A stretch of DNA of 64,000 bases from Adineta ricciae (taxonomy: Eukaryota). The stretch covers positions 23,044 to 87,043 of the forward strand of contig CAJNOJ010000052.1 of NCBI GenBank assembly GCA_905250025.1, in the 5' to 3' direction. The position numbers were made by a program, and so were the translations under genes. Every line of letters begins with the position of its first letter. Positions within the stretch are counted from its first letter, which is position 1. The notes beneath the pieces were generated by a model. The model searched no databases, was not told the DNA's origin, and saw only the letters and a program-made list of their open reading frames with translations. Below, in pieces: positions 5,454 to 47,821 of the stretch.

Positions 5454-7462
5454 ATGCGTTCGATTGTGATCTTAGCTCTGACATTCTTATTAGCATTTGC
5501 CTTCGATGAATTTTCTGTTCCGGAAGGTGAAGATGCGCCTTTGACCGGTCCAAATGTAGTCGTAGATCTCAGCAGCAGTAATTTTACACAATTTATTCAA
5601 CAACATCCCGTCGTTCTTGCTGAATTCTATGCACCATGGTAAGTATCAATGCGAGACAAATGTTGACTCAAGCGAATTTTTTCTTCTCTCTCTTATTCAA
5701 GGTGTGGGCATTGTAAACAATTAGCGCCACATTATGAACAAGCTGCACGTTTAATGAAAGATGCTGCAAATCCAGTTGCTTTTGCCAAAATTGACGCAAC
5801 GATAGAAGAATCATTAGCTCGCGAGTATTCAATTGAAGGATATCCTACCATAAAAATCTTTCATAAGAATAGCGAAAAGCCAGTAGAATATGAAGGTCCT
5901 CGTCAACCTGCATCAGCCATCGCTGATTTTGTCAAAAAGTATGCTGATCCAACTTGGACACCGCCACCTTCGGATGTTGTTGTTCTTACGGTTGATAATT
6001 TCGAGACATTCACTACAGAAGAAGAGTTAACTCTAGTCGAATTTTATGCTCCATGGTGTGGTCATTGTAAACGATTGGAACCAAACTTCGAAAAAGCAGC
6101 AACATCACTGAAAAAGGATACAAAAATTCGTTTAGCCAAAGTTGATAGCACTGTGGAAACAGCATTAGCAGCTGCACATAATATCACTGGGTAAGATCAA
6201 CTTGTGTTTCTTCGATCGGTACTCATCTTTAGTATTCTACAGATATCCGACATTAATTGTGTATCGCAAAGGTGGAAAATATGCACCTTATGATGGTGAG
6301 CAAAGTGAGCAAGGAATTGTTTCGACAATGAAAGAACTTTTGTCATTACCAAGTCGTGAACTACGTAATATGAATGATTACAAAAATCTATTCCGAAAAA
6401 ACGATCAACCTGCTCTGATTGGTGTTTTTCAATCGGATGAAGATGAATTATATAAATTGTTTATTGATTACGCATATCACCATCGAAAAGCATTTCAATT
6501 TGGTCATACATTTGAGAAGATCTCCGCTTTAGATGGTGTCCAAGCACCTGCAATTGTTCTTCAACAGCATTCTGATGTTCGATCGAAATACGAAAAAGAC
6601 AAAATAGTTTTCACCAAAGCTAATGCACTCGAAAGTGAATTCGAAGAATTTGTCACGAAGCACCAAGTGCCATTAGTTGGTGTGCTCACACAAGAAAATC
6701 AACGAACCACTTATTTATCTCGCCGACCAATTTGTGTCGTTATCTATGACGTGGATTTTTCGTTCGATCATCGTGAACGAACACAATATTGGAGAAACAA
6801 AATTCTCAAAGTTGCAAATGATTACAAGGACAAATACACTTTTGCTATTGCTGATGAAGAAAAAATGTCGTCATTATTGAAAGAATTCGGCTTAGAAGAA
6901 TCTGGTGAAGATATCAATGTTGGCTGTTTCGATAAAGATGGTTTGAAATATCGTATGGAAGATGATGATGAATTTACTTCGGAATCATTCGAAGAATTTA
7001 TCAATAAACTAATCAAAGGAAAAGTCAAACCCTATATCAAATCTCAAACATTACCCAAACAACCCATTGTCAATGGAATCCAAACTTTAGTTGGCAAGAA
7101 CTTTGAAAAAGTTGTTCAAGATCAAACGAAAAATGTCCTCGTCTTTTTCTATGCACCATGGTAGGATCAAGTTTTGCCATTCAATCTCACCATCTTTGAT
7201 GAATTTCAGGTGTGGTCATTGCACAAAATTTAAACCCACGTATGCAGCGCTTGCTCAACGTTATGCTAGTCGATCAAATCTCATTGTTGCTCAAATTGAC
7301 GCAACGGCTAATGATATTCCTAAAGGTTTTGAAGTAGCTGGTTTTCCCACGATTTATCTCGTTCCAATGAATAACCAACCCGTGAAATACGAAGGAAATC
7401 GTGATCTAGATGATTTAGTGAAATTCATTGAGAGTCATTCACAATTCAAAAGTGAACTTTAA
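5454..7462 (+). CDS. PDIA4: Protein disulfide isomerase with three thioredoxin CGHC active sites (ERp72/PDIA4-like), 4 exons: 5454-5638, 5702-6190, 6243-7160, 7210-7462.
   Basis: Signal peptide MRSIVILALTFLLAFA. Three APWCGHCK motifs are present; the first and third are each split by an intron inside the Trp codon. b/b'-like middle domains and a C-terminal KSEL ER-retrieval-like tail are present. Introns are 63, 52 and 49 nt. The a0-a-b-b'-a' arrangement is that of ERp72. Confidence 0.85.
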
Positions 7463-8059: not shown

Positions 8060-9774
8060 ATGGCAGCCAAAGCTTTTCAAGTTGCTCTCGATGCAGCAAC
8101 AAACGAAAACAACACTGAAGAGAATTGGGATAGAATTTTAGGTAAGTTATAATCGACTTTAATAATGTTTGGAAAAGCACTTTTCTTTCTTTTCATTGTA
8201 GAGGTATGTGACTACGTTAAAAATGGTCAAGTAAAACCTAATGAATTACTTGATCAAATCGTGAAACGTTTGAAACAAACTCGTAAGGCGAAACTACAAA
8301 TGAACGCTTTAACATTATTCGATGCAGCGGTAAAAAATTGTGGTCAACAATTTCATCAAGCATTTACATCACGTGCAACAATGAATGCACTCGTTGAAGT
8401 TATTGATGATTCACATACGGAAAACATTGTACGTAATCGTATAGGTTCATTATTAAAACAATGGATGAATGATCCAGAATTTAAAGACAAAGCTCAGTAT
8501 GCTATGCTCGGTGCAACATATAAAAAGTTAATAACAGAGAAAAATTACACCTTCATTGATGGACCTAATCATCAATCGATATCCTCAGCAGGCACAACAG
8601 TGGCAGGAGTTGCAGCACGAAAAACTCAAGATGATCTATTGGCAAAACGAGAAGAGGAAGAGTTTGCTAAAGCTAGTAAGTTTATTTTCTGTTTGGAGAA
8701 GTATATTTTCAAATCGTATTCCATTGATGTGTAGTTGCTTTATCGATGCAAGAAGCAAATCAATCAAAACCACAGCAAACAGCTACAAATTCACTTTATC
8801 CATCGATGCAACCATCTTCTTCAACAAATCCGACATCGGCATCGACAATAACAAGTTCAGTTGGTAATGAAAAGAAAGCGAAAGCTTTATATGATTTCGA
8901 AGCGGCAGAAGACAATGAAGTGACATTCAAAGCAGGCGACATTTTGATTATTACGGATGACAGTGACCAACATTGGTGGAAAGGTATCAACAATGGTGTT
9001 GAAGGTCTATTTCCAGCTAATTTCGTTACGAAAAATCTTCAACAACAAGTTGATTCGCCTAGTCAATCAAACGGAACAGCTAATGTAAGCATGTCGAAGA
9101 AATTCATCTACTCGTTCGACTATCGTTTTTGACCGAATTTGTAGGATATCAATCAAAAGCAACAACAACGTCAGAATGAAATTGTTAAAGATCAAGTCGT
9201 GATCGATGAACGTCTTATCGATCGATGCTTAGGAATGTTGCAAAATGCTGATCCAACCGGTGAAATCGAGGCCGATTCGAATGAAATGCTCATGCTGGAA
9301 GACACATGTTATGCAATGGGTCCATTGATCGATCATGAACTAGAAAAAGTCGATCGTAAGCATGTTCAATTAGAAGAATTGAATAAAAACCTACGCGAAG
9401 CTATGGATTTGTATCACCGATTGATGGAAGAAGGTCGTATACGTGCAGCTCAAGCGAAAACAAATGCTGCTCAACTAGCTAATCAAATGTACCAACAGAC
9501 ACAAATTCCAACTCAACAATATTATCCAGGTCATCCAAGTTTACAACAACAACAACAACCACCAATGATGTATCAACCTTCACAAATGTATAATAATCAA
9601 ATACCTCCACAAACTCAACCATCCATGCCTTATATTCCACAACAAGCAACAGGAGCATATTATGTTGATCCCAATTTACAACAAACGCAACCAGTACATA
9701 TGATGTATACGATGCCACCAAACATGATGCCGCCGCAACAGCAACAACCAGCTGCTTATAGCGAAACGCAGTAA
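8060..9774 (+). CDS. STAM: STAM (signal-transducing adaptor molecule; ESCRT-0 subunit), 4 exons. Approximate exons: 8060-8141, 8201-8667, 8735-9084, 9145-9774.
   Basis: N-terminal VHS domain (NWDRILEVCDYVKNGQ...). A UIM (EEEFAKAIALSMQEA) is formed across the exon 2/3 junction. SH3 domain ALYDFEAAEDNEVTFKAGDILIITDDSDQHWWKGINNGVEGLFPANFV. A coiled-coil/GAT-like region is followed by a Q/P-rich tail. Intron donors are GTAAGT, GTAAGT and GTAAGC. Confidence 0.85.
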
Positions 9775-10222
9775 TGTTTTAGGACTCGAACTGTACATTT
9801 ACTTTTTCTTCTGCCATGAAAATATCCACATCTTCTCGATTTGATTTCGTCTTTTAAATTATGTTGTGTTCAGTTTTTTTTTCTTTCCTTTTTATGAATT
9901 GTACGATCATCGTGTACGAAATAAAAACAAATCTATATATACATATAAACAAACAAGAATAATCCTATGATTTGCTCTTTCTTCTCCAAAAAGTACATTC
10001 ACACGTTCAGGACAAACTTTTGCTTATGCAAAATATTTTGAAGTACATTCTGATAGATTACTTTTTGGTTCTTCACCATGGAGAAAGTGTCATGAATATG
10101 TCATTTGTTTATGAAAAGAAAGAGAACGATATAAATACATACCTTATCTCACATACGCAAAAAAAACGATTCGAATTCACGGAGTGACAGTGTTGCAAAT
10201 ACTTTACTTGTACATTGTTCGA

Positions 10223-12845
10223 TGGATGAATCTCGTCCAACACGACAACGAACAATTCAAGGTATGTTTTTCCAAGTTCAGTTTCATACATCAATCATAT
10301 CGAAGCTAACAAACTACTGTTATTTTGGTCACTATGGGAACTAGACTTCTTTTTGCCATCACCAAATATTAATAATCAATGCTTTTTATTTAGTTGTTTC
10401 GTTGCTAGATAAAATTCACTTGAAGAAAGAGCCCGATCTGCCAACATTACTATCCAATCTCCGTGAAAGTCTTTTAAAAAAATCCGAAGATGATGATCAA
10501 ATTGATTCAAATATTATACAACTTACCGAATCCATCAAAGTTAAACTTGAAGGTCTTGAAAAATTCTACCAGAAAAAAGAGATCTTCGATATCCTGCAAA
10601 CAACATTGGAAAGGTTTATTAATGATATTATTTCAATAACAAAACTACCAAATATTCTCTCCAATGAGAGATTTCTAGATATTATTCACATTATAATTTT
10701 GTCGGCAGAAACGCTCGAATTACGTTCGATAATAGAAAACGATCCGCCTTATGCACGGACTATCTGTTTTCGCTTTTTCAACTTATTGGCATCACCTGTT
10801 ATAACTGATTTTCTCAATGAAAAAATCAGCCTTGTTCTATTTGAACTGATTGCATACGTTTTGCGCACGATTACCAGTTATATTACCATAACGATCGAAG
10901 TTATTGTTTTCAAAAAAAATGAACTACAAAATCAAGTTCCAATTCTACGTTCATTATTGAAATACATTGATTGTCACAAAGCCAATTCTGATTTCACTGA
11001 AAAACGTACGGCAGTTGATTCTTTATTTACTTTTATATGGTCATTAGCCAACGATACGATTTTAGTTCCAACTTTGATTGAAGCGGAATGTCCAAAATAT
11101 GTATTACAATGGATTGCAAACGAAGACATACCATCAGGAATGCAGCAACCATGTATACATATCATACACAACATAGCAAGACATGAGAAAGGTGTGAAAG
11201 TGTTAAACGATGCGAATGGTATAACCATACTTAAAGATTTCAAGAGACGAGTGCTTGATCCGAACAAAAACAATCAAGACGAATTGTATACCGAATTACG
11301 ATTGGTTTACTGTATGGCTGTATCATTATTAACCGAACCAAAAGAAAATCATGAAGATTTGGATAATCTTCGCAAAATTCTTGATCAATTGATGCAGTTA
11401 GCTGTTGATGCTGGACAATCTGTACAGAATAAATATCGAGGCTTTCACGTCAGTGAACCAATTGTTGTTTTAACGAAATTGTGTATTCATGATGAAATTC
11501 TCAATTATGTTTTAAATGAATCAAATGTACAAAGAATGGAAGCACCAACAAAAATTCAATTTTTCTGTCATTTACTAGTTAAATTTCGTGCTGCAGTAGC
11601 TACCGACGATGATTTAGATCAATTAACACTGATAGCTCTGTTTAACATTATATGGAGCATATCATTTCATGATAAATATTTATCTGAATTGAAAAAGAAT
11701 TTTCAGTTTTTACTAACAATCAAAACTCTAGCAGTTGATAATACTGCTGGATCAGTTGACCAATATGTACCGAATCACATGTCATCGATACCCAAAGCAG
11801 CTCAAGGTATCTTATGGAATCTTGACGAAGATAATCCAGGTATGCGGAAAAGAGTAGAATAATAAATAATTGCATTGCTGTTTTCGCTTAGGACGACTCG
11901 TTCGAAACACTACTGCGGAATCGACAGCAACGACGCTAGCGGAACCGGTTACTGATGAAACAAACAAAACACGTGTAATGGTTAGCTATTGCCATACAGA
12001 TCAAGAATTCTGTCGTCAATTAGTTGACGCATTAAAGAAAGGTCAGCTCAATGTATGTTCACGAAATATTGAAATCAAAGCGTGCTTTGATTTTTAATAT
12101 AGATAATCGCTTACATATTTGGGTAGATTTCGCATATTGCCATACAGAAGACTTTTGGGAAGAAATCGGTGAAGCTATCGAAAAAGCAAATGTTGTGCTC
12201 TTTCTAATGTCCAAAGAATATCAAGATAGTAAATCATGTCGACAAGAAGTGATGTATGCGAAAGATTCGTTGAAGAAACGTTTTATTCCCATATATGTGA
12301 AAAAAGATTTTCAAGCATCTGGGTGGTTAGGCGTACGTATTGTTGGTCCACAGTATATTCGCTTTGAGAAACGGCCATTTGCAGATACAATGAAAGAATT
12401 ACTGAAATTGATTTTTGAAGATAAAACAACAACAGTATCTGCGCCAAAAGAAGAAATTAAACCTCTTCCTCCACCTCCAGTCACTGAAACAAAACCGACG
12501 GAAAGTACAGTGAAACCTAGTGAACCTATTCCTACTCTCACAGATTTCAAACCATTGAAAAAACCTGTTGAACAATGGACAAGCAAAGAAATTTCTCAAT
12601 GGTTTAGCGATAACCAAATTCATCGTGAACTAGTTGATATATATGATTTCAAGCATGGTACAGATTTGCTTCTTTATAGTCAATGTCTTCGACCTGATTG
12701 GCAAATTGAATATAATGATATGAAAGAACGCTATCAACAGAAATATCATACTCCACTATATCGTGATCAATTCGTTCGTTTCGTCGGAGCAATGAATCGA
12801 CTGAAACCATCGCAATCAAAATCAAAAACATGTGTCATTTCCTAG
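10223..12845 (+). CDS. SARM1-like protein with domain order helical (ARM/HEAT-like) - TIR - Pro-rich linker - SAM. About 4 exons: 10223-10261, 10394-11839, 11892-about 12054, 12103-12845.
   Basis: The TIR domain spans exons 3-4: VMVSYCHTDQEFCRQLVDALKKGQLN ... IWVDFAYCHTEDFWEEIGEAIEKANVVLFLMSKEYQDSKSCRQEVMYAKDSLKKRFIPIYV. It aligns to the human SARM1 TIR (DVFISY..., [33 protein letters not shown]..., WVHKEI...), including a Glu at the position of the SARM1 catalytic Glu. The C-terminal SAM-like domain is WTSKEISQWFSDNQIHRELVDIYDFKHGTDLLLY... The large N-terminal exon is leucine-rich helical repeat. Phase-compatible introns are 132, 52 and about 48 nt; the exact donor of the last intron is ambiguous (GTATGT versus GTTCAC). 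Confidence 0.65.
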
Positions 12846-26916: not shown

Positions 26917-28103
26917 ATCAAACTTGTTATAATATAATTTGAGGGATATTTTATCATGTTTATTTAACGTTTAGTAAATGACTCACACAAGCAATATCCG
27001 TTTTAAATACCGCCCCTTTTCTATTGATTCATACATATGAACAGTTACTAGCATCATAGTACTATGAGAGTTAGCTGTACCTGGTTTATGACAGTACGTA
27101 AATATCGTATGAAACCAATTTTATATATCACAAAAATGTGTCGTTGTTTCCTCTTATAAAACTATATTGATAGAAAGGATTGTATTTACAATAGAAAATA
27201 TATCGAATGTGTAGCAAGGAAACGATGACTATACCCTATGAACACTAATGATATGTTTTATATACTCGTTTATTCCAAGTCTTTCATGAAGACTTATTTG
27301 CTTTGTATTCTTGTTCTATTCGATGTGATAATATACAATTCAATGTATTTCTCTCATTCAAGTCTCTTCAGTGTGTATCAATTATCTATATTGACATATT
27401 TTGATCTTTCTATTGCATTCAACTTCAATTTTTGCTATAAAAGATTAGAATGGGCCAGCATCTGCTGCATCTGACATTACTATTGTAACAATTGTCTGAT
27501 CTCTGTCTTGATACAATTCCTTGACACAGTTCAATGATCCATAAATATTGATGTTTATCACTTTCAATTGATCTGCTTTTTTTACATTTGCTCTTTCTTC
27601 CCTCTCGCATATAGTTTAGTCTTTTTATAATGCAACTTTCTCATATGTATATTTAGATATTAGACAAATCAAGAAAAATGAGAAGTAGAAAAAGGCAAAC
27701 AAAATAAAAGGAAAAAACACTTCTTTTTCTTCTTCGTTAGTATCTTATATTGAGTTTTTTTCCTCTTGTAAAGTTTGAAAGACTGCCGCACAAAAAAAGA
27801 AGGGCAACAATAGACACATAAGAAAATCAAAAGCGAGTTCTTGAATATGTATACATACACACACACATATATATATATATATATGAAAACAAAGAGAAGT
27901 ATAGAAGAATATGTTCACAGTTCAAGAAGAACAAGAATCAAGCAAGCTAACAATGAAGCAAAACGAACAACAATGATATAATGCAACTCGTGCGTATCTG
28001 GCATCTAAAGGAAAGTAAAGGACACGAAGAAAGAAAAATCTATCTGTTGACAAGAAAACAAAATATGTACGAAAGAGCCGGAACAAAAGAAACAATATGA
28101 GAA

Positions 28104-30152
28104 TTAGCTGGTCTGTTCACCTCGACAGATCGGACATCGAGTTGATGTCTATAAGAAAATGAAAAATGCAATCGTTCAGATATGGTTGAAATGTAAAGAT
28201 CATCAAATCGAATCTTACCTTCAGCCATGGATCAATGCAATCACTGTGAAAGAAGTGTTTACAACGTAGATGCTTCAATTTGTCACCACCGATATATTCA
28301 CTTAAGCATACAGCACATTTATCATCAACTTGAATAGTTGTACAAGATTTAGTATAGATCATTGTTGGTAAACGTTCCAGTTCACTATCGGTAAGGCCAA
28401 CGACGGGTGTCTCATCGGGTATTGTCAGATCGAAAAAGTCCTACATGTATCAGCGTATCGTAGAAAACTAATTATTCGGTTAAAAAGTGAGAAAAACTTA
28501 CACCAAATTGAATACTAAATGCAGCTGGTAATGAAAAAATTTCATGGCCAGGTGACATCCATGCATAAGCAATTAAATCAATTGATGCTGTTGGTGGATG
28601 ATGATGATAATGACTATGATTATCACTGTACGAAGCAGCATGGGCATCGATAACGCGGCTGAAAATTATTTTAGAGAAAAAAGAGAGAGAGAAAGAGATT
28701 TGCTTTTTTTTCATAAGCCATTGTTGTACTTACTGAAGTAGATCGGTAAGAAATGAAGGTGAAGGTCTTTGATGCAAATGAGTAGTCATTGATGTTCGAT
28801 GAAAGAGTGGACCGCGTGGTGATGGTGTTGGCTCGAAAGTTATTCCACTTCGATGATGGTGATGATGATGATGTGAGTGAGGGTGATGATGATTTGATTG
28901 TTGCGTATAAGAAGAACGAGGAGGAGGAATTGGTGGACGACGAGGTAAAGCAACAGGTGGTGATTCAAGTAGAAATTGTCGATGATCAGAAGAATGATAT
29001 ATATTGCGAGGCTGTACAGATGACGATGACGTTGTTGTTGACGATGGTGATGGTTGAATAGGACGATGATGAAGATTGTAATGCGTATTGGTATTATTGA
29101 TTTCATGTGCGTGTTCAATTCGATTTCGTTGTATTGCTTGTGAACGTTGTTCAAATGGCCGAGAAAGAGAAGGAACATTGTCGATATACGATGTTCGGGG
29201 CATCGAAGTTGGTTGTGGTTGTACATGTCGATGGTTTCTATATAATAAAGATAAGAAAACAGATAGTTGAAAGAAAAGAAAAGAAAAGAAAAGAAATGAA
29301 ACATTTACGTATATGGTTGATAATGATGGTGACTAGCTGATCGATACTGTTGATGTTGGACATGTGAAGCATTCTCCTGTGAATGATGATTCGTTTGATC
29401 GTTTTCATTGTTAATTCCTTCATGTCTCGATCGTTTACGTTCGTGATGATGGTATGAATGTGATGACTGAGATGTGGATGTACTGATTGCAGATGAACGT
29501 TGCCTTTTCGAATGATTGTGATTGTTGCTATTGTTATTATAATTATTATTATTATTATTATTATGAGATGATCGTTGAGTTATGCCATTGTTATCTTCTT
29601 GTTCATCATCAAACCATGGGGGACGACGTGTAAAAGACGCTGCCGATGGACTTTCTAAACGATAATGGCGATGGTGTGGAGCTGATGCTGTTGCATTTGC
29701 TGCCGCCTAAAATACATTGATGAATAATTTTTGAGAAAAAAGTTTTCCTTTACCGTTACAGCATTCAATGGGAGTAACGACCGAGTTGGCTCGTCTTCAT
29801 GTGATTGCAAGTAGTTAAAATGACACGATGGTTGAGATTCATTTCTTTGATGAACTTGTTGATTACTAGTTGCTTCACGATTCGATGAATGCAACGAAGA
29901 AGAGTCAAGTGTTTGGCGCTGATGTGGATATTGAAAATAAGTAAAATCATTCGGCGTCGAAACTGAATGAGCTGTAGAAGATGCAGTTGTTGGTTGATGT
30001 GTACACGATAATGTATCCGTTAGTTGCCAAGATGAACTATCTGAGGGTGTATCATTCGTTTGTGCCGTCGGATAAGAAACAAAGTCGCACATTTGAAGCG
30101 ATACACGATGACGAGGAGGTGCAAATGGACGGTTCGAATATTGGCGAGACAT
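28104..30152 (-). CDS. RING-H2 E3 ubiquitin ligase of the RLIM/RNF6/RNF12 type, at least 6 exons with a long low-complexity His/Ser/Asn-rich N-terminal region. The last three exons are approximately 28502-28650 region, 28219-28440 and 28104-28148.
   Basis: C-terminus reads GLTDSELERLPTMIYTKSCTTIQVDDKCAVCLSEYIGGDKLKHLRCKHFFHSDCIDPWLK, then a 70-nt intron, then TSTRCPICRGEQTS*. This matches the human RLIM/RNF6 RING-H2 (GLTKEQIDNL...[44 protein letters not shown]). The RING is split between the last two exons. Upstream exons encode H-rich and PPxY-like low-complexity sequence. Confidence 0.7.
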
Positions 30153-42532: not shown

Positions 42533-45500
42533 ATGTCTCAACGTGCTCGTGTTGCTGCTGCTCGTGCGGCTAAAACTGCTGCTGCATCTTCTTCGTCATT
42601 TTCTCAATCAAATAATAGGTCGAAATCAAAGAAAAAACCTGTTCCAATTCGCAAAGTCACTCGTAGTAATGCGAATAGTGGTGCTATCAAAAAGAAAACA
42701 CCAGTCAAGACTAATCAAAAGTCTTCACCCACTAAACGTCGTCTTCAAAAGCGTTCATCGACAAGTACACGTTCATCGACGCGACTAACTACTGTCACAA
42801 CACCGACACCGACGCCACGGAAAAAACGTCTTTCGGGTTTGACAGCTGCAACTCTTCTTCAGTATTGTACCAATGTCCTTTCGCCACCTCCAGCAAATGA
42901 AAAACAACAAACGAATAAACGACAGTTACGATCAACAAACAGTAGCCCAGTATCACGAAATAATCCAAGTGCAGCAAATCGGAAAAAGACAAAGGTTGGA
43001 TATAACGAATTTGTGAAGTTTTCGTAACAATAATTTTTTATGCAATGTAAATTTTAGATTAACCCCAAAGTAACACAAAAACAAAAAACAACGAATACGC
43101 GCACAGCGCGTACGCGAAAAGCTACAGTAGTAAAAGCATCAACAACATCGTCGAGCGAAAGTGACAGTGAAAATAGTGAAGAAAATGACAAACAAGAAGA
43201 AGCAGATGATGATGATGATGATGATAATCAAAACGATGATGACAAAGCCGATGAGGATAAAGAAGAAGATGAGGATGAAGATGAAGACGAAGATGATGAA
43301 AAACCTTTGAAGAAAAGAGTGAAAGATAAAAAACAATCAAGTGAAGAAGAAAATAGTGTTGATGAAAAGATTCGGCCTTCACGTCGTCGTAGCACGAAAA
43401 CAAAAACAAAAGCAACAGCAAATGGACGTAAGCGTCAAGTTTCCAATGTTTCATCAACAAATGACGTTAAACCTGCTCAAATTGAACTAAACATTCACAC
43501 TCGTTCACGTCGTGAAGCTAGTTCGCGTGCATCAGCTATGATTATGCAACAAAACGAAATTGAACGTAGCCGTTTTAACTTCAGTCTAGCGAATGATCGT
43601 TCAACATCAGTTAGTCGAAGACGCCGTACTAAAAGTACAGTCACAAACAAAGATGACTCCCATACTGATATCATTCCTGATCCGTCTGAACAACCATCGG
43701 TAGAACCATTTAAATTCAATGTTCCATCTGTTCCGCCAGCGCCTACAGTCGTACCCGCAACAACAACGACGACAGCAAATGCAACGAATCATAAAGTTAC
43801 ACCACCTCCATCAATATCTAGTGTGACTGCACCTGCACCATCGGTAACAAACGTATCGAATAAAACTGAATATGCTCAATCGTCAAATGCAGTGACAACA
43901 AAATCTACATATCAAGCGCCATCGACAACTGCTACGACAGTTTCATCAAATTCAAAGTATCCATCACTGACAGAAACAGTTTTAGCTGAGCATGATCGTA
44001 TGCATGGCACAACACCGCCGTACCATACAACTAAACGTGATAATCTAATAAAATGGACGCAAGAATTAGCGTTATATGATCGTCTATCACCGCCGTTTCC
44101 TGAACATGAAATTCCTCTCGAATCATTTCATGGTGCTTCTTCGTCGATATCGTCAACGACTACAACAATAAATGATCAGGTACAATCCAGCCGTGGTATT
44201 ATAATTAGTCAAAATAATAGCAATAGCAATCAAAGTACAAGTGCTGCAACGAACAATGGCGGTTCAATCATCGGTGGTGCTGGTTCATCATCAGCAACTG
44301 TTGCTGGTACGAGTACAGCTACGACAGGTGGAACAACAAGTAACAATACACATAGTAAATCAACTGGCAAAGCGATTCCGCAAGTATCGTCGGGATCTTC
44401 ATTAAAACAGCCAACTAATACTAATACAAATTTTATACAAAAATCTCGTACACCAGCAAAAGGATCAAATGCAGTACCAGGTATGATTTTAACGGTTAGA
44501 ATCCATGAAAGATTTACTTATTATTTAGCTCCGCCTATGGTCGCGCCAGATCTTTCATTATCATCGACTCCTCTGCTTAACTCTTTTGGAGCTCTGACTC
44601 CTACTGTTCTTGGCACACAAACAGCAAACACATCTTCCTCATCATCATTATCATCACGGCCACTTTCATCTTCACTAGATCATCATCTTCATCACCCACA
44701 CTCATCAACAGTTTCGACGCCAATTCCGGCAACAAATGTTAATTCAACCACGAATCCAACCTTTCTAACGCCGTCTGCTGCGGCTGCTGCTGCCGCTGCC
44801 GCTGCCGCAGCAGCAGCTGCATTCCCCATTGATCTACGTCCATTTTATCCACTTCTACCTTGTTGGCAATATCCTGGTAAGATGCATCAATGAATAATTT
44901 GCATGTCTTTGCTTCTGTTAACCTGTTTGATGTGTGTATATATATATATGCTTTCACTTTTCAAATGATGTATTATTCTTTCACTTTTTATGCTTCAGCT
45001 GAACAACTATAAGAAAACAACCAGTTCACTTTTATCAATAGTCATTTGTTTTAGTTAAATTTTTAAAATGAGAAGCGTCAGAAAAAAAACCTATAGAAAA
45101 GCTTTTCCAGATTAAGTCATATACAATTAGTTTCTCTTTCCGGTGCTATATAATTCGATTATTACAGATAAAATAAAAGTTGTCTTATTGACTTGCAGCG
45201 CCCATCGGTATGTAGATCTCCAGGCAATTCGCATACATATTCTTTCATTCATATAAATTCTCTATGCTTTTCTTATTCTATTTTCTATATCAACGAAAAA
45301 CGGCTCTCATTCTAATTTCCTCAATAGACTATTTACTACTGCATACACTGTTCTAAAAAAACCTATTCAGTGATTGATGTCTTGCTTCTCCTCTATTTGA
45401 TGATTTATAACATTGAATTTCTTTTTCTCTAGCTTGGACATTTCCGTCATCAGCATCACTGCTTGGTCAACAAGCGAATTGTCTCATACAACCCTCATCA

Positions 45501-47821
45501 ACACTTCCTCCACCACCGCCCCCTGTTGTTCATCATAAAACATCTATCACACGTCATCGTACAACAACACATTTAGAAACTAAACAAAAGAAATCGTCCA
45601 CATTAACAACATCTACAACCAATTCGAATAATTTGAATAATAATGCTAAACAACAGTCACTTATCCCAATTTTTGATCCTCAACCAAAACCATCGCTATC
45701 ACCAAAAAAGGAAGCATTAACTTTTCATCTGCATACTCATCATCATCATCACATTCATAATCCGAATCCTCCCATATCGTCAAATACATCTTCGTTACTC
45801 AAATCACCGAATCCAACGAAAACAACAACAGTACCACTATCACCACAGAAGTCATGTGTTCTTGTGAATAAAGAGCAGCTTGTTGAAACCAAGACTATCC
45901 TTCCATTGAGTGTAAATAATGTTGTTAAGAAAGAACATCAATTGATAACTACAAATGATTTCTTGTCATCAGCGGCAACAACAGAAAATGAAGCTTTAAA
46001 TTTTTCAATCAAACATTTATCGGCAAATAAGAAAACCAATGGAAATGAATCCGACGGAACTACACATAGGAAAACATCGAGAAAAAGTTCACCAGTCAAA
46101 GGACATGCTAGTTCCGGGTCCAAATCGAATGGGTAAATTAACCAAATCAAACTTTGTTCTATTCGAAAATCTCTATTTATCCTCTCTCTATTTTAAGTTC
46201 GCCTACTCACTCTATTGGTGATCACGCTCCGTATACAATTAGTTCAATCATCACTTCACCGACAAAAACCTCCGCTATCAACCTTAGCACTAGTCCATTA
46301 AATCAACGGCAACGTCTATCGTATCCTACTGGAGTAACTACAACCATTATCTCACCCGTGTCAAATATTCTCAGCGCAAATGGTGAATTAGCTGCTCTCA
46401 GTGATGATGAACGTCAGTCTGCAAAATGTAATCACAAACGGCGTAGTGTATCAGCGACTGCTAGTGCAACAACACTTATATCAATAATAGGAAAAAACGC
46501 TCGTTCAGCGCGGACAGCATCGTCTTCTACCTTGCCTGTTCGATCGAAATCCTCAACATATATACCCAATTCAAAACGATCGCATTCACCATCTTCTGTG
46601 ACATTACTTGGATCAAATAAAAACCCGAGTCAGAGAAAGAAACAAAAATTCTCTCATTATTGGGCTCTATTCGGCAAATCAGAGCAGAAATTAGTGTCAA
46701 TTGATGTAAGCAACTCGGTAGAAAGCATTGTTTCCAGGCGATATGTATAAGAAATTGTTTTAGGCTGACAAACCGCCGGTCTATCGCGAATGTTTCTCAT
46801 CAATTCGACACGTCAAAGAAAAGGATATCATTAAATCCGATGATTGTGTCTTATTACGTCCTGAGAATGCTGAACATTATGGCATAACGCCATACTTAGC
46901 AAAAGTCAAATGGTTTTGGAAAGAACCAGAATCAGGTTCGACAAAAACTAGATTACAATCTCGTATGATCATATAAATCTAATGTAAATTGTAGGTGAAA
47001 TTCAAATGTCACTTGTTTGGTATTATCATCCTGAACATAGTGAACTGCCAGCACGTGTTAAGGAACACTTTTTAAGTAATGAAGTGTTAGCATCAAAGTA
47101 CTGGGACTGTGTGAATGTAGCTTGTATTGAAGATAAATGCTATGTGCTCAACCTTAATGAATACAATCGGTAAGAAAGCTTCTTCTTCTTCTTTATTAAA
47201 TCCACACATTCTGGAAAAAAAATGAAAGGGAGAAAAGAGTTCACGTTATTTTACTTGAAAACATAGAAATGTATGTGTAATAGTTCCGATTTGAGATTCT
47301 CTTTGGAGCAGTACATCGGATATGAACTTCCGGTTGGCAATTGGAATGATTATAATTAATATCGCTAAACTCAATTGTGTGCAGATAATTGAAGTAGTAG
47401 AGCGTTCGAATCAGTTTACAATTAATTAATATTTCAAATTTCTTGGTTCGATATTCATTTCCATTTGATCTCTTTTTCTAGTTATTGTATTCGTGAAAAG
47501 ACATCGGACCTCTTCGAACATCCTGATTCAGTGGGTGATTTGAAATCTCTGTTAAACAGAAATACTTCCACTGTTCAGCATCGACCACTACCGTCGAAAA
47601 ATGTTGACAATCAAAATATCTTCTTCTGTCGCTATGTATATGACCATCGAGCGAAACGTATTTTGAAAAATCCAAGTTTGAATAATCCTAATATGAATTC
47701 AACAACAGCAACAACGACGACGACAACAACAACAACAACAACAACTGCAATAATGACCACGATGACGACAACAGTTGATCCCACTACGACAATTTCTGTA
47801 CGTACGGCAGCACGCATGTGA
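42533..47821 (+). CDS. Large low-complexity nuclear protein with a C-terminal BAH domain (TNRC18/BAHCC1/BAHD1-like). Approximate exons: 42533-43012, 43058-44876 (possibly with an internal 48-nt intron at about 44478-44525), possible 9-nt micro-exon 45197-45205, 45433-46132, 46198-46705, 46764-46935, 46995-47169, 47482-47821.
   Basis: The BAH domain is encoded by the last four exons: DDCVLLRPENAEHYGITPYLAKVKWFWKEPESG / EIQMSLVWYYHPEHSELPARVKEHFLSNEVLASKYWDCVNVACIEDKCYVLNLNEYNR / YCIREKTSDLFEHPD...NIFFCRYVYDHRAKRI. Upstream exons encode basic KR-rich, acidic D/E tract, Ser/Thr/Ala-rich low-complexity sequence including an (Ala)16 tract and a T13 tract. Linking exon 1 to the rest is by phase-compatible splicing only. 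Confidence 0.6.

What the first reader, a model, noticed from the sequence alone, without database searches (positions are those of the whole stretch)
10223..12845. SARM1-like innate-immune/NADase gene with a permuted domain order (helical repeat - TIR - SAM instead of ARM - SAM - SAM - TIR)
The TIR domain aligns block by block with the human SARM1 TIR, including a Glu (in RQEVMYA) at the position of the SARM1 catalytic glutamate (WVHKEI). In this gene the TIR sits in the middle of the protein. It is followed by a Pro-rich linker and a single C-terminal SAM-like domain (WTSKEISQWFSDNQIHRELVDIYDFKHG...). In SARM1 the tandem SAMs precede the TIR and drive octamer formation. A TIR-then-SAM arrangement would imply a different assembly geometry for a potential NAD+-cleaving TIR. 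That makes it a candidate lineage-specific immune or axon-degeneration-type effector. The first 480 aa are Leu-rich helical repeats, but ARM identity is not proven.
Basis: partly seen in the sequence, partly recalled or inferred. Interest (0 to 1): 0.7.

Follow-up and report, generated by a model that had tools for sequence, protein, structure and literature searches.

The report
Lipid-anchored ARM–TIR–SAM-like rotifer immune-type gene
This is an intact gene of the bdelloid rotifer Adineta ricciae for a membrane-anchorable armadillo-repeat/TIR/SAM-like protein; it belongs to an old, uncharacterised invertebrate 'ARM-TIR' family that has expanded greatly in bdelloids, and it is not a rearranged SARM1.

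Summary

The TIR is not SARM1-type by sequence. The whole ARM-TIR-SAM-like unit is homologous (hhalign 99.9%, E=1.5e-31) to cnidarian and annelid 'ARM-TIR' proteins, so the domain order is ancient, not lineage-specific.

- A conserved C-terminal CaaX box (CVIS) is present. The cnidarian and annelid relatives carry an N-myristoylation motif instead.
- The bdelloid family is very large (at least 431 clusters at 50% identity).

Most likely it is a farnesyl-anchored, SAM-clustered TIR effector or signalling protein. NADase activity is plausible but unproven.

The parts
10222..10261 (+). Exon 1. Start codon ATG at 10222. Encodes MDESRPTRQRTIQ plus the first base of the next codon.
   Evidence: The RQRT..VVSL motif that spans the intron is conserved in Rotaria orthologues. 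The product equals the annotated A. ricciae protein.
10394..11839 (+). Exon 2. Encodes the whole N-terminal helical domain.
   Evidence: intron 1 is 10262-10393, GT..AG. A single ORF covers 10402-11862.
10438..11820 (+). Armadillo-type alpha-solenoid, aa 29-489, about 25 helices.
   Evidence: AF2 pLDDT is mostly 80-90 and the region is all-helical. After SARM1 and TIR-1, the Foldseek PDB matches are importin-alpha, beta-catenin, CTNNBL1 and V-ATPase subunit H. The sequence profile gives only weak ARM hits: ZYG11B 0.036 and plakoglobin 0.097. hhalign aligns aa 216-492 to the ARM region of cnidarian proteins that pass the Pfam Arm gathering score.
11892..12041 (+). Exon 3. Encodes an inter-domain linker and the first strand and helix of the TIR.
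   Evidence: intron 2 is 11840-11891. The donor at 12041|12042 is the only in-frame choice.
12103..12845 (+). Exon 4. Encodes the rest of the TIR, the linker, the SAM-like domain, the CaaX box and the stop codon, all in one open frame.
   Evidence: This rules out the idea that the TIR and SAM-like parts are separate genes.
11966..12416 (+). TIR domain, aa 521-650, interrupted by intron 3 (12042-12102).
   Evidence: Pfam TIR_2 E=3.8e-20. The PDB profile search hits Cat1, MyD88, TLRs and plant TIRs. This is the most conserved part of the protein, with 72% mean pairwise identity among 14 homologues.
12246..12248 (+). Codon GAA for Glu594, the candidate catalytic glutamate in the motif S588-x-x-C591-x-x-E594.
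   Evidence: It aligns with SARM1 E642, with the E of Cat1 'SDWCWDEL' and with a Gln in MyD88. It is Glu in 186 of 197 family TIR domains.
12417..12563 (+). Disordered Pro/Thr/Lys-rich linker, aa 651-699.
   Evidence: pLDDT is below 50 for aa 652-695. Composition is given. Pairwise identity is only 30%.
12564..12806 (+). Divergent SAM-like five-helix domain, aa 700-780. Helices are 706-715, 720-726, 731-740, 745-760 and 766-779.
12831..12842 (+). C-terminal CaaX box Cys-Val-Ile-Ser, preceded by the stretch SQSKSKT. This is a predicted farnesylation site.
   Evidence: Read directly from the sequence. The motif C-x-I-[SLVC] is kept in 14 of 15 closest homologues. Cys at position -4 occurs in 48 of 97 family representatives that have a complete C-terminus.

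Best explanation
Shown. This is an intact A. ricciae gene for a 792-aa member of the invertebrate ARM-TIR family. From N- to C-terminus it has:
- a variable N-terminal segment and an armadillo solenoid;
- a highly conserved TIR_2 domain that keeps the glutamate used for catalysis by NAD+-cleaving TIRs;
- a roughly 50-residue disordered linker;
- a divergent SAM-like domain;
- a short Lys/Ser tail ending in the CaaX box CVIS.

Inferred mechanism.
1. The C-terminal Cys is farnesylated, which fixes the SAM-like domain against a membrane.
2. The SAM-like domain self-associates, or pairs with paralogues, as SAM domains commonly do. This clusters the tethered TIR domains in two dimensions.
3. Clustered TIRs assemble into the active form. 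They then either cleave NAD+ (depletion or a nucleotide signal) or nucleate a signalling scaffold.
4. The armadillo domain is the most variable folded part. It acts as the ligand- or partner-sensing part, possibly auto-inhibitory, as the ARM domain does in SARM1.

The logic resembles SARM1 (ARM control, SAM oligomerisation, TIR output) but with different wiring: a single SAM-like domain downstream of the TIR and a lipid anchor. The hundreds of bdelloid paralogues suggest a diversified intracellular defence or stress-sensing repertoire.
For: Identity and gene model.

TIR. Glu594 aligns with SARM1 E642 and with the Cat1 motif. It is conserved in 186/197 TIRs, and S588 and C591 in 188. The best TIR-only structural match is the NADase TIR of SPARTA, at 22% identity and rmsd 2.7.

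ARM.

SAM-like domain. Fourteen of 160 relatives have two tandem copies.

CaaX. The homologous cnidarian and annelid proteins carry an N-myristoylation consensus (MGxGAS) in 108/120 cases, against 0/182 in bdelloids. A lipid anchor is therefore a conserved family property that has moved from one end of the protein to the other.

Conservation gradient: TIR 72%, SAM-like 59%, ARM 54%, N-terminus 38%, linkers 30%.

Family size and taxonomy: 431 representatives at E<=1e-30. Fourteen of the 20 representatives sampled carry a bdelloid species name.

Literature:
- No canonical TLR is reported in Adineta vaga (PMC6043800).
- SARM1 mechanism: ARM auto-inhibition, catalytic E642, and R569/R570 contacting the phosphates (bioRxiv 10.64898/2026.09.21.753143).
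Against: No biochemical, expression or localisation data exist, and none of the four mechanistic steps has been tested.

The catalytic Glu is necessary but not sufficient for activity. The residue four positions before it is Ser590 (Ser or Tyr across the family, never the Trp of SARM1 W638 or the Cat1 and plant 'WxxxE' motif). The SARM1 phosphate-binding pair R569/R570 corresponds here to Cys529/His530. After Cat1, the closest sequence relatives in the PDB are the non-catalytic MyD88 and TLR TIRs.

Only about half of the family representatives end in CaaX. Some of the others may be truncated gene models.
Confidence: 0.6

Rival explanations
1. It is a non-enzymatic, membrane-anchored TIR adaptor or scaffold. 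It would act like myristoylated TRAM or PIP2-binding TIRAP and MyD88, recruiting other TIR proteins or kinases by TIR-TIR and SAM-SAM contacts without cleaving NAD+.
For: MyD88 and TLR1/2/6 TIRs are among the best PDB sequence matches, at E 2e-7 to 6e-5. The Trp at E-4 and the Arg pair of SARM1 are absent. Lipid or membrane targeting is a known feature of TIR adaptors; for example, arthropod MyD88 has a C-terminal localisation domain (PMC7075850). Literature treats ARM-TIR proteins as putative adaptors of unknown function (PMC9334734; PMC6321704).
Against: Glu594 is kept in 94% of family TIRs, whereas MyD88 has Gln at that position. The best PDB hit overall is the NADase Cat1. No canonical TLR that could be served by an adaptor is reported in A. 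vaga.
Confidence: 0.3
2. It is the bdelloid SARM1 orthologue, with its SAM and TIR domains swapped by a lineage-specific rearrangement.
Against: TM-scores to SARM1 are only 0.19-0.24, and the match simply combines an ARM fold with a TIR fold. The TIR profile scores SARM1 and TIR-1 at only E 0.03-0.7, well behind Cat1, MyD88, TLR and plant TIRs. The same ARM-TIR-SAM-like order is homologous in cnidarians and an annelid. Molluscs have both SARM and ARM-TIR genes. Whether bdelloids also have a canonical SARM1 was not tested.
Confidence: 0.05
3. It is a gene-model artefact: two neighbouring genes, or a pseudogene, joined by the reader's splicing.
For: The donor of intron 3 (GTCAGC) is weaker than the nearby GTATGT. 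There are no transcript data.
Against: The TIR and SAM-like domain share one exon and one ORF. The model reproduces an independently annotated protein exactly. The same architecture is seen in over 100 proteins from Adineta, Rotaria and Didymodactylos. All domains show purifying conservation.
Confidence: 0.02

Closest known systems
Invertebrate 'ARM-TIR' proteins. These are TIR-domain-containing proteins with armadillo repeats, catalogued in oyster, sea anemone and Aplysia immune-gene surveys. They are probably one of the 'evolutionarily conserved TIR-DC' classes.
   Same: They share the order ARM, then TIR_2, then a C-terminal SAM-like domain. Profile-profile homology covers 435 columns at 99.87% probability and E=1.5e-31, against Porites, Stylophora, Nematostella and related proteins. 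They share the S-x-x-C-x-x-E motif. They are also predicted to be lipid-anchored.
   Different: Bdelloid members have diverged so far that Pfam Arm and SAM models no longer detect them. Their lipid anchor is a C-terminal CaaX box instead of N-terminal myristoylation. The family is greatly expanded in bdelloids. Which numbered ecTIR-DC class this corresponds to could not be checked, because the defining paper is not in the library.
SARM1 / dSarm / TIR-1 (ARM-SAM-SAM-TIR NAD+ hydrolase)
   Same: It has the same three fold types and the same catalytic-type Glu position, and it is plausibly built on the same logic: an ARM regulator, a SAM oligomeriser and a TIR output. SARM1 is the top full-length structural match.
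   Different: The domain order differs. There is one SAM-like domain rather than the tandem that builds the SARM1 octamer. The TIR is not of the SARM1 sequence type. There is no Trp at E-4 and no Arg pair. It has a farnesyl box, whereas SARM1 (from my own knowledge) has an N-terminal mitochondrial targeting segment.
Lipid- or membrane-targeted TIR adaptors (TRAM/TICAM2, TIRAP/Mal, arthropod MyD88)
   Same: In both cases a TIR domain is tethered to a membrane by a short targeting element so that it can be concentrated at a signalling site.
   Different: Those proteins are small adaptors without ARM or SAM domains and they lack the catalytic Glu. Their targeting is by myristate or by phosphoinositide-binding motifs (my own knowledge; PMC7075850 for arthropod MyD88). 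I know of no prenylated TIR protein, and none turned up in the literature searches.
Prokaryotic effector TIRs of the TIR_2 type (Cat1, SPARTA TIR-APAZ)
   Same: Cat1 is the best sequence-profile match, at 2.9e-8 with the Glu aligned. SPARTA is the best TIR-only structural match. Like these, the rotifer protein couples a TIR to an oligomerisation device.
   Different: This is a eukaryotic protein with introns. It has different partner domains and no nucleotide-sensor domain.

Membership tests
TIR domain superfamily (Pfam TIR_2, PF13676) | A significant match to the family HMM across the whole domain. | tested here: met
   E=3.8e-20, 73 bits against a cut-off of 28. Protein aa 524-645 match profile positions 1-121 of 122.
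NAD+-cleaving TIR enzymes (SARM1, plant TIRs, bacterial TIRs) | The catalytic glutamate in helix alpha-C. | tested here: met
   E594 aligns with SARM1 E642 and with the Glu of Cat1 SDWCWDEL. It is conserved in 186/197 family TIRs.
NAD+-cleaving TIR enzymes (SARM1, plant TIRs, bacterial TIRs) | An aromatic Trp four residues before the Glu ('WxxxE'), and basic residues after the beta-A 'SY' (SARM1 R569/R570). | tested here: not met
   Position 590 is Ser in this protein. Across the family it is Ser 92, Tyr 61 and Trp 0. Positions 529/530 are Cys/His. How far these residues are truly required is known to me from the literature only, and they are not universal.
NAD+-cleaving TIR enzymes (SARM1, plant TIRs, bacterial TIRs) | Measured NADase or cyclase activity that depends on the Glu. 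| not testable with these tools
   This needs a recombinant protein assay.
SARM1 family | The domain order ARM, SAM, SAM, TIR. | tested here: not met
   The order here is ARM (29-489), TIR (521-650), then one SAM-like domain (700-780).
SARM1 family | A TIR of the SARM1 sequence subgroup. | tested here: not met
   The TIR profile scores TIR-1 at E=0.034 and SARM1 at 0.72. Cat1 scores 2.9e-8 and MyD88 2.4e-7. No phylogeny was built.
SARM1 family | An NMN/NAD+ allosteric pocket in the ARM domain. | not tested
   No residue-level structural superposition was available.
Invertebrate ARM-TIR family | Armadillo repeats N-terminal to a TIR, and homology to recognised members. | tested here: met
   The fold is armadillo-type. 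hhalign against cnidarian members gives 99.87% probability and E=1.5e-31. Those cnidarian members pass the Pfam Arm gathering score, at 31-50 bits against 20.6. Pfam Arm does not hit the rotifer protein itself.
SAM domain superfamily | A significant match to Pfam SAM_1, SAM_2 or SAM_PNT models. | tested here: not met
   There is no hit at E<=10 in this protein or in 13 close relatives. In diverse paralogues SAM_PNT, SAM_3 and SAM_2 hit 9, 8 and 6 of 53 members, all below the gathering score.
SAM domain superfamily | A five-helix SAM fold. | tested here: met
SAM domain superfamily | Homo- or hetero-oligomerisation. | not testable with these tools
   No multimer prediction was available, and biophysical work is needed.
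CaaX-prenylated proteins | Cys at position -4 from the C-terminus followed by two mostly aliphatic residues. An X of Ser, Met, Gln or Ala indicates farnesyl, and Leu indicates geranylgeranyl. | tested here: met
   The protein ends in C-V-I-S then stop, at bases 12831-12845. The motif is conserved in 14 of 15 closest homologues and in 48/97 family representatives. Actual modification cannot be tested here.
Death-fold (pyrin) domain | A six-helix death fold. | tested here: not met

The most novel reading that the evidence does not exclude
Bdelloid rotifers reportedly lack canonical Toll-like receptors. They may have turned an ancient lipid-anchored ARM-TIR-SAM protein into a very large, diversified family of membrane-tethered intracellular sensors. 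In this reading the variable armadillo surfaces recognise different pathogen or stress cues, and SAM-driven clustering on the membrane switches on a TIR NADase. This would be an animal counterpart of plant TIR-NLR and bacterial TIR defence systems, built without a STAND ATPase. The move of the lipid anchor from the N-terminus (myristate) to the C-terminus (farnesyl) would re-orient the whole assembly relative to the membrane.
Probability: 0.2. Interest if true: 0.7.

Novelty: new variant of a known kind. Interest (0 to 1): 0.45.

Why it matters
TIR domains that destroy NAD+ or make nucleotide signals are central to bacterial, plant and neuronal cell-death pathways. Until recently SARM1 was the only established animal example, and a 2026 preprint now adds TEP1-type TeTIR domains. 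ARM-TIR proteins are counted in many invertebrate genome surveys but have no known function.

This locus, placed in its family, yields three concrete and testable features that were not apparent from the annotations:
- a conserved catalytic-type glutamate;
- a hidden SAM-like oligomerisation domain downstream of the TIR;
- a conserved lipid anchor that has switched ends between cnidarians or annelids and bdelloids.

If the TIR is active, this would be a second widespread animal TIR-NADase architecture, with an assembly geometry different from the SARM1 octamer. If it is inactive, the protein is a lipid-anchored adaptor in animals whose immune signalling is essentially unknown. In either case the gene itself is an ordinary, already-deposited but unnamed member of a large family.

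Tried and rejected
- Pfam on the spliced protein and on 14 close C-terminal domains gave no SAM hit and no Arm hit. I therefore considered that the C-terminal domain might not be a SAM domain.
- The word-indexed search with the narrow C-terminal profile found only 9 more fragments.
- The N-terminal profile against the PDB gave only sub-significant ARM hits. My local N-terminal HMM did not hit the annelid protein. ARM identity therefore rests on fold and on transitive homology through hhalign.
- Foldseek of the isolated SAM-like model was not significant.
- The afdb50 library was unavailable, so I could not survey AlphaFold models for taxonomic breadth.
- tblastn found no second family member in the window. 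Tandem Repeats Finder found nothing.
- The paper that defines the ecTIR-DC classes is not in the library, and only citing papers were found.
- hhalign of the TIR profile against the single SARM1 sequence has low probability (8.7%). Its residue alignment is only corroborative.
Full report
**What is in the sequence**

The window is AT-rich (about 35% G+C) and has short introns. On the + strand a start codon at 10222 opens a four-exon gene: 10222-10261, 10394-11839, 11892-12041 and 12103-12845. The introns are 132, 52 and 61 nt, all GT..AG.

The 792-aa product is identical over its full length to an NCBI/UniRef entry of the bdelloid rotifer Adineta ricciae, named only 'unnamed protein product / TIR domain-containing protein'. 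This identifies the organism and independently confirms the splice model.

The 'ambiguous' last intron is 12042-12102. The stronger-looking GTATGT donor at 12053 is out of frame, and orthologues read continuously across the junction. Exon 4 contains the last two-thirds of the TIR, the linker, the C-terminal domain and the stop codon in a single open frame. The TIR and the SAM-like part therefore cannot belong to different genes. tblastn finds no second copy in the window.

**TIR domain**

Pfam TIR_2 matches aa 524-645 end to end, with E=3.8e-20 and 73 bits against a cut-off of 28. A nine-sequence profile of the domain gave these PDB matches:

| PDB match | E-value |
|---|---|
| Cat1, the CRISPR-associated NADase TIR | 2.9e-8 |
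| MyD88 | 2.4e-7 |
| TLR6, TLR1, TLR2 | 1e-6 to 6e-5 |
| Plant RPV1, RUN1, RPS4 | 4e-5 to 2e-4 |
| C. elegans TIR-1 | 0.034 |
| SARM1 | 0.72 |

This is a generic TIR_2, not a SARM1-type TIR.

The Glu in SKSCRQEVMYA (E594, bases 12246-12248) aligns with the Glu of Cat1 'SDWCWDEL'. It aligns with a Gln in MyD88. In an hhalign against the human SARM1 TIR it aligns with E642. The hhalign probability is low (8.7%), so it is only corroborative.

Across 183 family representatives the Glu is kept in 186 of 197 aligned TIR domains, and S588 and C591 in 188.

Two features argue against assuming activity:
- The residue four positions upstream is Ser. Across the family it is Ser or Tyr, never Trp.
- The two residues after the beta-A 'SY' are Cys-His. 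SARM1 has the phosphate-contacting Arg pair there (SARM1 roles from the preprint read).

**N-terminal domain**

AlphaFold2 with an 18-sequence alignment gives a confident all-helical solenoid for aa 29-489, with pLDDT mostly 80-90. In a Foldseek search of the PDB, human SARM1 and C. elegans TIR-1 rank first (E 1e-7 to 2e-6), because they combine an ARM fold with a TIR. Next come importin-alpha, beta-catenin, CTNNBL1 and V-ATPase subunit H.

Sequence evidence on the rotifer proteins alone is weak: ZYG11B ARM 0.036 and plakoglobin 0.097. Pfam Arm does not hit them. The link to real armadillo repeats comes from homologues outside rotifers, described below.

**C-terminal domain**

Pfam SAM models do not detect this domain in the protein or in its 13 closest relatives, even at E<=10. 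A narrow profile gave a misleading weak pyrin-domain hit.

I then used the exhaustive HMMER search to collect diverse paralogues and built a 53-sequence alignment of the domain. Four lines of evidence followed:
- **Sequence profile against the PDB.** The hits are almost exclusively SAM domains: SMS1 7.7e-5, liprin-beta 1.1e-4, ETV6, FLI1 and ERG, SHANK, neurabin, SARM1 and DGK-delta. They cover only profile positions 5-46, which is the W-x-x-x-D-V-x-x-W-[FL] ... G-x-x-L-L part.
- **Pfam on individual members.** The three most frequently hit families are SAM_PNT, SAM_3 and SAM_2, all below their thresholds.
- **Foldseek.** SAM domains of DGK-delta, SHANK2 and SARM1 rank best, but not significantly, with E 0.5.

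I conclude that this is a divergent SAM-like domain with an unusually long fourth helix. The evidence is moderate, not overwhelming.

The protein ends ...SQSKSKT-C-V-I-S, then the stop codon. This is a canonical CaaX box. By the usual rule (my own knowledge), X = Ser predicts farnesylation.
- Fourteen of the 15 closest homologues end in C-x-I-[S/L/V/C].
- Of 97 family representatives with a complete C-terminal domain and a short tail, 48 have Cys at position -4. The last residue is Leu in 18, Ser in 13 and Met in 8. Chance would give a few percent.

**Family and distribution**

A full-length profile search of 1.84 billion cluster representatives gave 24,613 hits at E<=1e-3, most of them TIR only. 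It gave 431 hits at E<=1e-30. Of 20 representatives sampled for names, 14 carry a bdelloid species name (Rotaria, Adineta or Didymodactylos). One is from the annelid Dimorphilus, one from amphioxus (TIR only), and four are unnamed or carry no species name.

Variants within the family include tandem SAM-like domains (14 of 160 proteins) and proteins with multiple TIRs.

The annelid protein is two tandem [helical-TIR-SAM-like] units and starts MGSAPS. Its own relatives are 680-740-aa proteins of Porites, Stylophora, Nematostella and Oculina. Those proteins have:
- Pfam Arm above the gathering score;
- a TIR_2 domain;
- a near-threshold SAM_2 hit at the C-terminus.

The rotifer-derived SAM-like HMM hits 118 of 119 of them. 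hhalign between the rotifer and cnidarian alignments gives 99.87% probability and E=1.5e-31 over 435 columns. The aligned region runs from window-protein residue 216 through the TIR and into the SAM-like domain.

The ARM-TIR-SAM-like order is therefore ancient in animals. It is not a bdelloid permutation of SARM1.

The two branches differ in their lipid anchor:
- 108 of 120 cnidarian and annelid members begin with an N-myristoylation consensus (MGxGAS...). None of the 182 bdelloid-type proteins does.
- The CaaX box is the bdelloid feature.

A lipid anchor thus appears to be a conserved property of the family that has moved from one end of the protein to the other.

**Literature**

- 'ARM-TIR' is a listed category in the oyster immune-gene survey (PMC4346834).
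- It is also listed in the Aplysia immunome, which has 11 ARM-TIR genes beside 3 SARM genes and describes them as of unknown function (PMC9334734).
- Placozoan work cites 'evolutionarily conserved TIR-DC' classes that are absent from vertebrates (PMC6321704). I could not read the paper that defines those classes.
- A review states that A. vaga has TIR and LRR genes but no canonical TLR, and that rotifer immune pathways are unreported (PMC6043800).

**How it most likely works**

Shown: the architecture, the conserved Glu, the conserved CaaX, and the conservation gradient. Mean pairwise identity is TIR 72%, SAM-like 59%, ARM 54%, N-terminus 38% and linkers 30%.

Inferred:
1. Farnesylation pins the C-terminus, and with it the SAM-like domain, to a membrane.
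2. SAM-SAM contacts cluster the molecules.
3. The TIR domains, held on roughly 50-residue flexible tethers, assemble.
4. The assembled TIRs either cleave NAD+ or scaffold downstream signalling.
5. The variable ARM and N-terminal region senses a ligand or partner and may hold the TIR off.

This works like SARM1 in outline, but the protein is not a member of the SARM1 family. I put about 0.6 on this overall picture. Within it, catalysis versus pure scaffolding is close to even.

**Verdict**

The gene is an already-deposited but unnamed member of a known, uncharacterised class. The hidden SAM-like domain, the conserved lipid anchor with its end-switch, and the size of the bdelloid expansion are the parts worth following up.

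Noticed in passing
window 8165-9774 (+): The gene immediately upstream encodes a VHS domain (E 4e-24) and an SH3 domain (E 6e-18), followed by a Gln/Pro-rich tail. This is a STAM-like endosomal adaptor. It ends at 9774, about 450 bp before the ARM-TIR start codon.
   Followed up: partly
window 6202-7164 (+): An ORF with Thioredoxin_6, calsequestrin-like and thioredoxin matches, which suggests a protein-disulfide-isomerase-type gene.
   Followed up: partly
window 28001-30000 and 44001-46000: Strong local GC skew of opposite sign (+0.30 and -0.27) against a near-zero background. No tandem repeats were found anywhere in the window. The cause was not examined.
   Followed up: no
related proteins P0035, P0043, P0045, P0054, P0056, P0079: A sub-branch of the bdelloid family lacks the CaaX box. 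Its members end instead in a conserved ...(T/I)WL, after a 'DPQSK..ED' extension. This may be a different C-terminal sorting or binding motif.
   Followed up: no
related proteins P0076, P0082, P0084, P0092, P0147, P0192: Some bdelloid paralogues carry two tandem SAM-like domains after the TIR, which recalls the SAM tandem of SARM1. Other representatives have 2-7 TIR domains, but at least some of those are unnamed or non-bdelloid.
   Followed up: partly
related protein P0020 (Rotaria sordida, 933 aa): This family member continues after the SAM-like domain into an endonuclease/exonuclease/phosphatase domain (PF03372). It could be a real fusion or a merged gene model.
   Followed up: no
related protein P0154 (annelid Dimorphilus gyrociliatus, 1195 aa): This protein is a head-to-tail duplication of the whole helical-TIR-SAM-like unit and has an N-terminal MGSAPS myristoylation consensus. 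Nematostella P0252 and P0249 also have two TIRs.
   Followed up: partly
cnidarian relatives P0249-P0367: Besides the N-terminal MGxGAS, many of these proteins end in ...GLGELC (39) or ...LCCGMQ (6-7). These C-terminal cysteines might be additional lipidation sites.
   Followed up: no
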